Of a stretch of 64,000 nucleotides of DNA, positions 56,867 to 57,146 are shown piece by piece. The position numbers and the translations under genes were made by a program. The DNA is from a virus (taxonomy: Duplodnaviria > Caudoviricetes): IMG/VR virus record IMGVR_UViG_3300025121_000013. The stretch is one strand, 5' to 3'. The stretch's first letter is position 1; every line of letters starts with the position of its first letter. Below the pieces are notes generated by a model. It was given only the letters and a program-made list of their open reading frames with translations, made no database searches and was not told the DNA's origin.

Positions 56867-57146
56867 TTTTTGACATACCCGTTGTTTCTTCCATTGAGGT
56901 ATACAACGGGAAAAATACCTATGTTTGGCCCAGGGAATTAAGAGGAAGTGATGGGAGGCTTAATCCCCTGACAGATGGAAGACCCTGCTACATGAACATC
57001 CTCCCTAATTTTGATTTTTGACATACCCGTTGTTTCTTCCATTGAGGTATACAACGGGAAAAATACCTTTAGGATAGGGAATCAAGAATTCGTCTTGGGA
57101 GGCTTGATTCCCTTCAGATGGAAGACCCTGGCCATGTGTTCCTCCC
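56867..57146 (-). ncRNA. two tandem copies (148-bp period) of a double-pseudoknot structured RNA
   Basis: 54 bp identical (56867-56920 = 57015-57068); the rest conserved in pairing, with a compensatory change; G-U pairs favour the minus strand. Confidence 0.7.

What the first reader, a model, noticed from the sequence alone, without database searches (positions are those of the whole stretch)
56867..57146. Tandem double-pseudoknot RNA with a loop-loop cross-link: candidate new riboswitch or ncRNA class
Each ~130-nt unit on the minus strand reads GGGAGG-N10/12-CAGG[GUCUUCCA]UCUG-AGGGRAUYAAG-CCUCCC-N10-CUURAUUCCCU-linker-AGGUAU-UUUU-CCCGUUGU-AUACCU-CA-AUGGAAGA-A-ACAACGGG. This gives pseudoknot 1 (GGGAGG/CCUCCC with the 11-12 bp helix), pseudoknot 2 (AGGUAU/AUACCU with CCCGUUGU/ACAACGGG) and an 8-bp UCUUCCAU/AUGGAAGA pairing linking them. 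Between copies the linkers diverge, every pairing is kept, one pair covaries (U-A versus C-G), and the apparent mismatches are G-U only on the minus strand. It lies 70 nt downstream of the 19-bp promoter-like motif. I recognise no known family. Hypotheses: tandem ligand-sensing riboswitch, type III antitoxin-like decoy (ToxI RNAs are tandem pseudoknots), or self-assembling RNA using inter-copy kissing.
Basis: partly seen in the sequence, partly recalled or inferred. Interest (0 to 1): 0.9.

Follow-up and report, generated by a model that had tools for sequence, protein, structure and literature searches.

The report
Tandem pseudoknotted leader RNA, huge phage
A huge groundwater phage carries two tandem copies of an elaborately self-complementary RNA element in front of a nucleotide-degrading (DHH-type) enzyme gene; it looks like a new structured regulatory RNA, but it was found in this phage only, so its fold and function remain untested.

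Summary
On the minus strand, two units (57146-57015 and 57005-56867) each contain the same six complementary segment pairs. All 42 proposed pairs form in both units. Within the diverged 5' halves, paired columns are 47/50 identical and linker columns 13/37 (p=3e-9). Of the three changed paired columns, two form one compensatory C-G to U-A swap and the third gives A-U to G-U. Watson-Crick self-complementarity exceeds all 1000 shuffles. The element is GC-rich (44% against 30%). It starts 68 nt after a promoter-like motif found three times in the window, and ends 27 nt before a 289-aa gene. No Rfam family matches.

That gene belongs to an unannotated DHH/DHHA1 phosphoesterase family whose fold is nearest PggH, PAP phosphatase, NrN and NrnB. 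The gene's Shine-Dalgarno GAGGUAU is the exact complement of one pseudoknot strand, AUACCUC.

My best reading (0.4) is a cis-acting translational control leader, riboswitch-like or protein-responsive.

The type III antitoxin reading fails three of the four defining features.

No homologue of the RNA was found, so the only comparative support comes from the two copies. This scan's other notes on the stretch are re-readings of the same DNA.

The parts
57215..57236 (-). Promoter-like motif AACTATATATATTAATAAATGA; likely start region of the leader transcript
   Evidence: Three copies in the window, all on the minus strand, 0 expected by chance. The 47016-47037 copy lies 35 nt before a minus-strand ORF start. 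Aligned.
57015..57146 (-). Unit A (132 nt). S1 57146-57141 with 57102-57097; Pa 57130-57127 with 57118-57115; P2 57113-57103 with 57086-57076; P3 57068-57063 with 57050-57045; P4 57058-57051 with 57033-57026; loop-strand contact 57125-57119 with 57041-57035; tail UAUGUCAAAAA to 57015
   Evidence: R1 score 162 bits
57006..57014 (-). AU-rich spacer (UCAAAAUUA) between the units. The only polymorphism seen among the assemblies compared (one extra A) lies in the A-run just before it
56867..57005 (-). Unit B (139 nt). S1 57005-57000 with 56958-56953; Pa 56987-56984 with 56975-56972; P2 56969-56959 with 56942-56932; P3 56920-56915 with 56902-56897; P4 56910-56903 with 56885-56878; loop-strand contact 56982-56976 with 56893-56887; tail to 56867
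   Evidence: R1 score 173 bits
56843..56849 (-). Shine-Dalgarno region GAGGUAU of the downstream gene. It is the exact complement of AUACCUC (the P3 3' strand plus C) at 56902-56896 and 57050-57044
   Evidence: duplex -7.8 kcal/mol against -4.9 for P3
55970..56839 (-). 289-aa gene (P0001), a DHH/DHHA1-fold phosphoesterase of a family with no Pfam or NCBIfam model; the presumed regulated gene
   Evidence: 104 remote homologues; DxD, DHH and GWGG motifs conserved; AF2 pLDDT 93; Foldseek hits to PggH, PAP phosphatase, NrN, NrnA/B, GdpP and RecJ
57315..57911 (+). Divergently transcribed HD-domain phosphohydrolase gene that shares the 475-nt intergenic region (context only)
   Evidence: Pfam HD E=3e-6; phrog_5889

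Best explanation
The element is a tandemly duplicated, pseudoknot-forming structured RNA in the roughly 365-nt 5' leader of a phage DHH-family phosphoesterase mRNA. It most likely acts in cis on translation of that gene. Each unit has a 5' domain: a hairpin P2 whose loop CCUCCC pairs back to the 5' GGGAGG, plus a small hairpin Pa. Each also has a 3' H-type pseudoknot (P3/P4). The Pa loop can pair with the strand that crosses the 3' pseudoknot. In unit B the P3 3' strand AUACCUC can pair either with AGGUAU, completing the pseudoknot, or with the gene's Shine-Dalgarno GAGGUAU about 45 nt downstream. Whatever stabilises the folded unit would then free the ribosome-binding site, and the unfolded state would mask it. 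The stabiliser could be a small nucleotide-derived ligand, as the enzyme's fold suggests, or a protein. Shown: the repeat, the complementarities, block-wise conservation against saturated linkers, the strand, the position between promoter motif and gene, and the fold of the gene product. Inferred: that all helices coexist, that the SD competition operates, and that a ligand exists.
For: All six helices are intact in both units (CAGG/UCUG read in the correct register). Conservation is confined to the pairing blocks while linkers are randomised (47/50 against 13/37, p=3e-9). One compensatory pair and one A-U to G-U change lie in P2. Watson-Crick complementarity is above all 1000 shuffles. Every G-U pair reads correctly only on the minus strand, the sense strand of the downstream gene. 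GC is 44% against 30% for the window and 22-28% for the flanks. A promoter-like motif lies 68 nt upstream and no terminator separates the element from the gene. The SD is a perfect 7-nt complement of the P3 3' strand, and that duplex is stronger than P3. The downstream protein has a DHH/DHHA1 fold nearest enzymes that hydrolyse pGpG, pAp, SAM-AMP, nanoRNA and c-di-AMP. One homologue lies beside a CRISPR-associated PrimPol and Cas1. No ORF is conserved between the units, and the unit periods of 141, 144 and 148 nt are out of frame with each other.
Against: No homologue of the RNA was found, so the fold rests on two paralogous copies and one compensatory change. The 3' 54 nt are identical, so P3, P4 and the 3' strand of the contact have no comparative support. 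The helices are almost invariant in sequence while the linkers are saturated. This points to sequence-specific constraint (a protein or RNA partner, or inter-unit pairing) at least as much as to constraint on structure alone. Purine-rich and pyrimidine-rich tracts allow many alternative pairings, such as GGGAGG with UCUUCC or UUUUCCC, and GUAUACCU with GGGUAUGU. Nested folding energies are not exceptional. A 7-nt complement to an SD built on AGG is not very improbable. Five loci of homologues of the enzyme show no similar leader and no Rfam riboswitch.
Confidence: 0.4

Rival explanations
1. It is a stand-alone or processed structured ncRNA. The two units are cut out of the leader at the AU-rich spacers and act in trans, for example as a decoy or sponge for a host or phage protein, or as a self-associating scaffold using the 7-8-nt loop/strand complementarity between units or molecules.
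For: Helix strands are near-invariant in sequence while linkers are saturated, as expected if strands of one unit must also pair with the other unit or bind a sequence-specific partner. The 11-nt tail UAUGUCAAAAA is unpaired in the model yet identical in both units. Single-stranded A/U-rich spacers flank each unit. Complementary segments are identical in both units, so intra-unit and inter-unit pairing are equally possible.
Against: No terminator or recognisable processing signal was found. The element directly abuts a gene with matching SD complementarity. No expression data are available. No second locus exists in the 139-kb record.
Confidence: 0.22
2. It is a protein-binding translational operator, autoregulatory or controlled by another phage protein. 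This would resemble the pseudoknotted operators of the E. coli alpha operon (S4), rpsO (S15) or T4 gene 32, rather than a metabolite sensor.
For: Strong sequence-level conservation of the blocks. Each unit begins with GGGAGG followed by AUG 5-6 nt later, an SD/start look-alike that could trap 30S subunits. Unit B's 5' end GGGAGGAUGUUCAUGUA resembles the true RBS AAGAGGUAUGUUAUGUA. Established knowledge: the S4 and S15 operators are pseudoknots that include the initiation region.
Against: No candidate binding protein has been identified. The mini-ORFs are not conserved: 17 codons in unit A, AUG-UAG in unit B. This reading overlaps the best explanation and differs only in the effector.
Confidence: 0.15
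3. It is a type III toxin-antitoxin-like antitoxin: tandem pseudoknotted repeats that neutralise the downstream protein, as ToxI does ToxN.
For: The order promoter, tandem direct repeats, protein gene resembles toxIN, cptIN and tenpIN. The repeats can form pseudoknots.
Against: The units are 132-139 nt, against 34-46 nt in known antitoxins. No terminator lies between repeats and gene. The protein has a DHH/DHHA1 phosphoesterase fold with an intact DHH motif, not a ToxN/AbiQ-type endoribonuclease, and has no relevant Pfam or PADLOC hit.
Confidence: 0.03
4. It has no RNA function. It is a DNA-level element (iterons, a protein-binding palindrome array, a recombination site) or a decaying duplication whose complementarities are incidental.
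For: It is seen in one phage lineage only. The assemblies compared that cover it are near-identical. It lies in a divergent promoter region where DNA-binding regulators act. The identical 54-nt block could be a recent conversion tract.
Against: Three G-U pairs become A-C mismatches on the other strand, so the symmetry is RNA-like, not DNA-like. Conserved blocks of 4-17 nt alternate with randomised linkers of variable length, and this cannot come from conversion or recent duplication. A compensatory change keeps P2 intact. Five long Watson-Crick helices per unit exceed all shuffles.
Confidence: 0.15

Closest known systems
Tandem riboswitch architectures (glycine riboswitch; tandem glutamine-II/Downstream-peptide and other tandem aptamers)
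   Same: Two similar structured units lie in series in one 5' leader, a single coding region follows, and conservation is restricted to structural blocks.
   Different: No sequence or structure match to any Rfam riboswitch, even at E up to 10. No ligand is known. The units are far more alike in sequence than typical tandem aptamers. No homologues in other genomes.
H-type pseudoknot translational riboswitches that occlude or release the SD (preQ1-I/II, SAM-II/V)
   Same: The 3' domain is an H-type pseudoknot: a hairpin whose loop pairs with the 3' tail. One of its strands is complementary to the SD of the downstream gene.
   Different: The stems (6 and 8 bp) and the 11-nt crossing strand differ from those classes. 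The SD lies outside the pseudoknot and competes for a strand rather than being part of it. There is no Rfam hit. A second pseudoknot domain and a long-range contact are added.
Pseudoknotted protein-binding translational operators (E. coli alpha-operon S4 site, rpsO S15 site, T4 gene 32 leader)
   Same: A multi-helix pseudoknot sits in a leader next to, or including, SD/AUG-like sequences.
   Different: Those are single sites that overlap the real initiation region and are bound by the operon's own product. Here there are two copies upstream of the real RBS, and no binding protein is known.
Type III antitoxin RNAs (ToxI, CptI, TenpI)
   Same: Tandem direct repeats of a pseudoknot-forming RNA lie directly upstream of a protein gene under one promoter.
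   Different: Repeat length is three to four times larger. No intervening terminator. The partner protein is a DHH phosphoesterase, not a ToxN-like RNase.
phi29-type packaging RNA (pRNA) and multimeric ROOL/GOLLD phage-associated RNAs
   Same: A phage-encoded structured RNA with loop complementarity that could act between copies.
   Different: No Rfam match to pRNA, ROOL or GOLLD. Much smaller than ROOL/GOLLD. Located in an mRNA leader. Multimerisation is untested.

Membership tests
Any Rfam 15 family | Covariance-model score at or above the family's gathering threshold | tested here: not met
   In the whole window at gathering scores only tmRNA and tRNAs hit. For 56700-57350 at E up to 10, the four hits have E of 0.32 or more and sit far below threshold (snoZ247, RybB, snR36, sRNA162).
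Riboswitch (generic) | Located in the 5' untranslated leader of the regulated gene, on the sense strand | tested here: met
   The element lies between promoter-like motif 57215-57236(-) and start codon 56839(-), with no terminator between.
Riboswitch (generic) | Aptamer conserved across genomes, with covariation supporting the fold | tested here: inconclusive
   No homologue was found in 8 viral, 2 metagenome and 1 genome scans, nor by CM searches. Between the two paralogous units there is 1 compensatory and 1 wobble change in P2.
Riboswitch (generic) | Expression platform with mutually exclusive pairing that involves the SD or a terminator | tested here: inconclusive
   AUACCUC can pair with AGGUAU (P3) or with the SD GAGGUAU (-7.8 kcal/mol). 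No terminator was found. Function was not tested.
Riboswitch (generic) | Direct, selective binding of a small ligand | not testable with these tools
   Needs in-line probing, ITC or similar.
Type III toxin-antitoxin (ToxIN/CptIN/TenpIN) | Tandem direct RNA repeats immediately upstream of the toxin gene | tested here: met
   Two tandem units lie upstream of the 289-aa ORF.
Type III toxin-antitoxin (ToxIN/CptIN/TenpIN) | Repeat unit of about 34-46 nt | tested here: not met
   The units are 132 and 139 nt, with a period of 141-148 nt. The 34-46 nt range is from established knowledge.
Type III toxin-antitoxin (ToxIN/CptIN/TenpIN) | Rho-independent terminator between the repeats and the toxin gene | tested here: not met
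   0 terminator-like sites in 56600-57500.
Type III toxin-antitoxin (ToxIN/CptIN/TenpIN) | Toxin is a ToxN/AbiQ-fold endoribonuclease | tested here: not met
   No Pfam hit. The confident model (pLDDT 93) matches the DHH/DHHA1 fold. The only PADLOC hit is a marginal CARF match at E=0.0048.
HDV-like (nested double-pseudoknot) ribozymes | Helix order P1-P2-P3-P1'-P4-P2' and a match to the Rfam HDV-type models | tested here: not met
   The helix order here is S1-Pa-P2-S1'-P2', then P3-P4-P3'-P4': two side-by-side H-type knots. No HDV-type model hit at E up to 10.
DHH/DHHA1 phosphoesterase superfamily (the downstream protein) | DHH motif, N-terminal DxD motif and a Gly-rich DHHA1 motif | tested here: met
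   D12, D63, H64, H65, G247 and W248 are invariant; D10, G249 and G250 are at least 90% conserved across 39 family members.
DHH/DHHA1 phosphoesterase superfamily (the downstream protein) | Two-domain DHH/DHHA1 fold | tested here: met
   Foldseek probability 1.00 to PggH 7d62 (E 2.9e-8, TM 0.54), PAP phosphatase 8a8k (TM 0.59), NrN 9lqc, and NrnB O31824 (TM 0.57).
DHH/DHHA1 phosphoesterase superfamily (the downstream protein) | Match to Pfam DHH/DHHA1 sequence models | tested here: not met
   0 of 39 family members hit any Pfam model and none hit NCBIfam. Membership is at superfamily and fold level only.

The most novel reading that the evidence does not exclude
The units are aptamers of an undescribed riboswitch class that senses a nucleotide-derived signal. 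Candidates are a linear dinucleotide such as pGpG or pApA, a cyclic oligoadenylate, SAM-AMP, or another defence or second-messenger molecule. The switch would turn on a phage DHH phosphoesterase that destroys that signal. That would make it an RNA-sensed, self-limiting counter-defence or nucleotide-clearing circuit in a huge phage, built on a new fold of two linked pseudoknots.
Probability: 0.1. Interest if true: 0.9.

Novelty: new variant of a known kind. Interest (0 to 1): 0.55.

Why it matters
If the element is a working regulatory RNA, it would be a new structured-RNA family with an unusual topology: two H-type pseudoknots tied by a loop-strand helix, in tandem. It is encoded by a huge phage and wired to a signal-degrading type of enzyme. 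Phage riboswitches are rare. A sensor upstream of a DHH phosphodiesterase would tie RNA sensing to the nucleotide-signal conflict between phages and hosts, and it would name a concrete, testable set of ligands. Its present weakness is that it is a singleton. Without homologues it cannot be called a class, and the fold is supported mainly by the internal comparison of two copies.

Tried and rejected
**Known families.** Rfam at gathering and E-value thresholds gave no family.

**Similarity searches with the element.**
- blastn in 'distant' mode against 50,697 phage records: no match.
- The phage's own 139-kb record by blastn and by CM R1: only the two units, plus one AT-rich chance hit at E=1.5.

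**Exact and degenerate DNA patterns.**
- Viral contigs: the 33-nt P4 hairpin core of the 3' domain, 0 hits. GGGAGG plus Pa, 0 hits. Both contact strands with a gap, 3 hits. The Pa 16-mer alone, 33 hits. Every hit was rejected by the CM.
- Metagenome contigs: Pa plus CCUCCC, 0 hits. A purine/pyrimidine-coded 3' domain, 0 hits.
- Genome contigs: contact strands, 18 hits, all chance by the CM.

**Synteny route.**
- The 289-aa protein has no close relative in viral contigs.
- The DUF4774/phrog_18079 neighbour gave 20 loci with no CM hit.
- Tail-sheath relatives (about 50% identity) gave 8 viral records with no CM hit.
- The 781-aa ORF has no relatives.
- Protein search against phage records finds only distant jumbo phages: phiR1-37, AR9, PBS1.
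- The family alignment was too divergent for the search for related loci.

**Same phage elsewhere.** 22 contigs carry the identical protein; 6 places were shown. In the 5 that cover the upstream region (57-481 nt compared), the only difference is one extra A in an A-run. The 265-kb ENA contig could not be searched.

**Homologue leaders.** Five loci of DHH-family homologues show no R1 hit above noise and no Rfam family.

**Expression.** No RNA holder was listed for this stretch.

**Literature.** Two searches found no description of such an element.

**Readings considered and rejected.**
- Coding region: the unit periods are out of frame and the mini-ORFs are not conserved.
- CRISPR-like array, retron ncRNA, pRNA and an HDV-like ribozyme: wrong geometry and no Rfam match.

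All these searches have limited power. Pattern scans need exact matches, and the CM could only be run on DNA already fetched.

Full report
**What is there**

The window belongs to a 139-kb IMG/VR virus record estimated to be 45% complete. The same phage was assembled from groundwater samples as contigs of up to about 265-274 kb. It is AT-rich (30% GC), encodes a tmRNA and eight tRNAs in this window, and has a contractile-tail sheath distantly related to those of phiR1-37, AR9 and PBS1.

The finding lies in a 475-nt intergenic region. On one side is a plus-strand HD-domain gene (57315-57911). On the other is a minus-strand 289-aa ORF (56839-55970).

Read on the minus strand, the region holds two tandem units, A (57146-57015) and B (57005-56867). 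Each has the order:

GGGAGG - variable 10/12 nt - CAGG[GUCUUCCA]UCUG - 1/2 nt - AGGGRAUYAAG - CCUCCC - variable 10 nt - CUURAUUCCCU - variable 7/11 nt - AGGUAU-UUUU-CCCGUUGU-AUACCU-CA-AUGGAAGA-A-ACAACGGG-UAUGUCAAAAA

**Is it more than chance?**

Five of the six proposed helices pair in both units. The small CAGG/UCUG stem was entered one column off in that call. In the correct register (columns 20-23 with 32-35 of alignment A2) it also pairs in both.

- Counting only perfect Watson-Crick stems of 6 bp or more that do not overlap, unit A has 39 nt and unit B 34 nt in stems. Dinucleotide shuffles average 10.5 and 9.3 and never exceed 28 and 26 in 1000 trials.
- In the diverged 5' part of the alignment, 47 of 50 paired columns are identical between the units, but only 13 of 37 unpaired columns are (Fisher p = 3e-9). 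The linkers are therefore essentially randomised and differ in length, while the pairing blocks are preserved.
- The three changed paired columns all lie in the 11-bp helix P2. Two form a C-G to U-A compensatory swap and one turns A-U into G-U.
- The G-U pairs (one in each CAGG/UCUG stem, one in P2 of unit B) would be A-C mismatches on the plus strand, so the minus strand is the functional one.
- The element is GC-rich (44%) against flanks of 22-28%, which puts it in the top 3-4% of 140-nt windows. Other peaks in that range include the tRNAs and the tmRNA, along with several stretches I did not examine.

Two caveats apply. The last 54 nt of the units are 100% identical, so P3, P4 and one strand of the long-range contact carry no comparative information. 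Nested-structure energies are also unremarkable (z from -0.4 to -1.9). That is expected if the fold is knotted, but it is not positive evidence.

**Topology**

- The 5' domain is an H-type pseudoknot. Hairpin P2 (11 bp) has a 16-nt loop whose first six bases, CCUCCC, pair with the 5' GGGAGG (S1). The small hairpin Pa sits between them.
- The 3' domain is a second H-type pseudoknot. Hairpin P3 (6 bp) has a loop containing CCCGUUGU, which pairs with ACAACGGG downstream (P4, 8 bp).
- The strand crossing this second knot, AUGGAAGA, is complementary to the Pa loop, UCUUCCA(U). The contact is 7 bp if Pa forms.

Individual duplex energies are -10.3 (S1), -16.0/-13.2 (P2), -4.9 (P3), -11.8 (P4) and -9.2 (contact) kcal/mol. 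Each nested subset is stable on its own.

Whether all helices coexist or represent alternative states cannot be decided here. The purine-rich and pyrimidine-rich tracts also allow competitors: GGGAGG with UCUUCC or UUUUCCC, and GUAUACCU with GGGUAUGU.

**Context**

A 22-nt motif, AACTATATATATTAATAAATGA, ends 68 nt upstream of unit A. It recurs twice more in the window, always on the minus strand, with none expected by chance. One of those copies lies 35 nt before an ORF start, so it behaves like a phage promoter. No terminator-like site lies between the motif and the ORF. The units therefore sit in a leader of about 365 nt.

The ORF product (P0001) has no Pfam, PHROG or NCBIfam match. An exhaustive HMMER search nevertheless found 104 remote homologues of similar length. 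In an alignment of 39 of them, D12 and the DHH triad are invariant, as are G247 and W248 of a GWGG motif; D10 and the remaining two glycines are at least 90% conserved. None of the 39 hits Pfam.

An AlphaFold model built on that alignment is confident (pLDDT 93). It matches DHH/DHHA1 enzymes: the pGpG phosphodiesterase PggH, PAP phosphatase, the SAM-AMP-degrading NrN, NrnA/NrnB, GdpP and RecJ.

One homologue lies next to a CRISPR-associated PrimPol and Cas1. That is a single anecdote. Downstream on the same strand follow a DUF4774/phrog_18079 gene and several tRNAs.

**Mechanism**

The gene's Shine-Dalgarno region GAGGUAU (56849-56843) is the exact complement of AUACCUC, the 3' strand of P3 plus one base. 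That sequence is present in both units, and in unit B it lies about 45 nt upstream of the SD. The duplex (-7.8 kcal/mol) is stronger than P3 itself (-4.9).

This gives a plausible expression platform. When the 3' pseudoknot is locked, the SD is free; when it is open, AUACCUC can mask the SD.

I also noticed that each unit begins with GGGAGG followed by AUG 5-6 nt later. Unit B's 5' end (GGGAGGAUGUUCAUGUA) resembles the real initiation region (AAGAGGUAUGUUAUGUA). The ancestral duplication may therefore have included an RBS, and S1 may double as SD sequestration of a vestigial start. The mini-ORFs are not conserved: 17 codons in unit A, and AUG-UAG in unit B.

My best explanation is a cis-acting translational control leader (confidence 0.4). 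The effector could be a small nucleotide-derived ligand, or equally a protein.

The near-invariance of the helix sequences against saturated linkers is more than structure alone would demand. It keeps open a trans-acting or self-associating ncRNA (0.22) and a protein-bound operator (0.15).

The type III antitoxin idea fails three of four defining features: unit length, terminator and toxin fold (0.03). A DNA-level or non-functional repeat (0.15) is hard to reconcile with the G-U asymmetry, the compensatory change and the block-wise conservation.

**Search for relatives**

Nothing related was found.

- blastn against phage genomes.
- Eight viral-contig scans, two metagenome scans and one genome scan, using patterns drawn from the conserved blocks or proteins from this phage.
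- Covariance-model searches over about 0.6 Mb of fetched loci and eight related viral records.

All pattern hits were chance matches. The assemblies of the same phage that cover the region differ by one A in an A-run. No RNA run holding the stretch was listed.

These searches are weak for diverged RNAs, so absence is not established. For now the element is a singleton.

**Verdict**

Calling it a riboswitch, a new class, or a simultaneously formed double pseudoknot is still inference.

I rate it as a new variant of a known kind (a structured leader or regulatory RNA) with interest 0.55. It is well worth a proper metagenome-scale CM search and a simple probing experiment. Most of its potential value rests on the roughly 10% chance that it senses a nucleotide signal which the downstream enzyme degrades.

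Noticed in passing
window 57215-57236, 47016-47037, 7340-7361 (all minus strand): A conserved 20-22-nt AT-rich motif (CTATATATATTAATAAATGA) followed by a T-run. It is probably a phage-specific promoter. Its style recalls the AT-rich early promoters of phiKZ/AR9-type jumbo phages; that comparison is from memory and was not tested.
   Followed up: partly
window 55970-56839 (-); homologue loci L043, L062-L064: The 289-aa protein founds or joins a family of at least 104 proteins with DxD/DHH/GWGG motifs and a confident DHH/DHHA1 fold, but with no Pfam, NCBIfam or PHROG model. One member sits between a sigma-54 activator and a CRISPR-associated PrimPol-Cas1 pair.
   Followed up: partly
window 57146-57129 and 57005-56988 (-), compared with 56851-56835 (-): Each RNA unit starts with GGGAGG plus AUG 5-6 nt later: a 17-codon ORF in unit A and AUG-UAG in unit B. 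Unit B's start resembles the true RBS/start of the DHH gene, which suggests that the duplicated segment once included an initiation region.
   Followed up: partly
window 55184-55915 (-): The gene after the DHH gene (DUF4774, phrog_18079, E=3e-55) contains a stretch with GC up to 0.64 in a 30% GC genome (55271-55678). It has homologues at 31-67% identity on 18 viral contigs, mostly around 40 kb and so not huge phages. A tRNA follows directly (55175-55104).
   Followed up: no
window 45529-45563: A perfect GC-rich inverted repeat, GGATGGGGAGG...CCTCCCCATCC, readable on both strands. It is probably a bidirectional terminator.
   Followed up: no
window 33725-34798 (+) and 34625-34900: A TnpB/Cas12f-like ORF (Cas12f1-like TNB domain, E=7e-23) with a GC-rich stretch at and beyond its 3' end, where an omega/reRNA would be expected.
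   Followed up: no
window 7255-7340 (-): Downstream of the third promoter-like motif there is no obvious minus-strand ORF, only a short GC-rich hairpin (GGGCGATGCCC). This is possibly another small RNA or leader.
   Followed up: no
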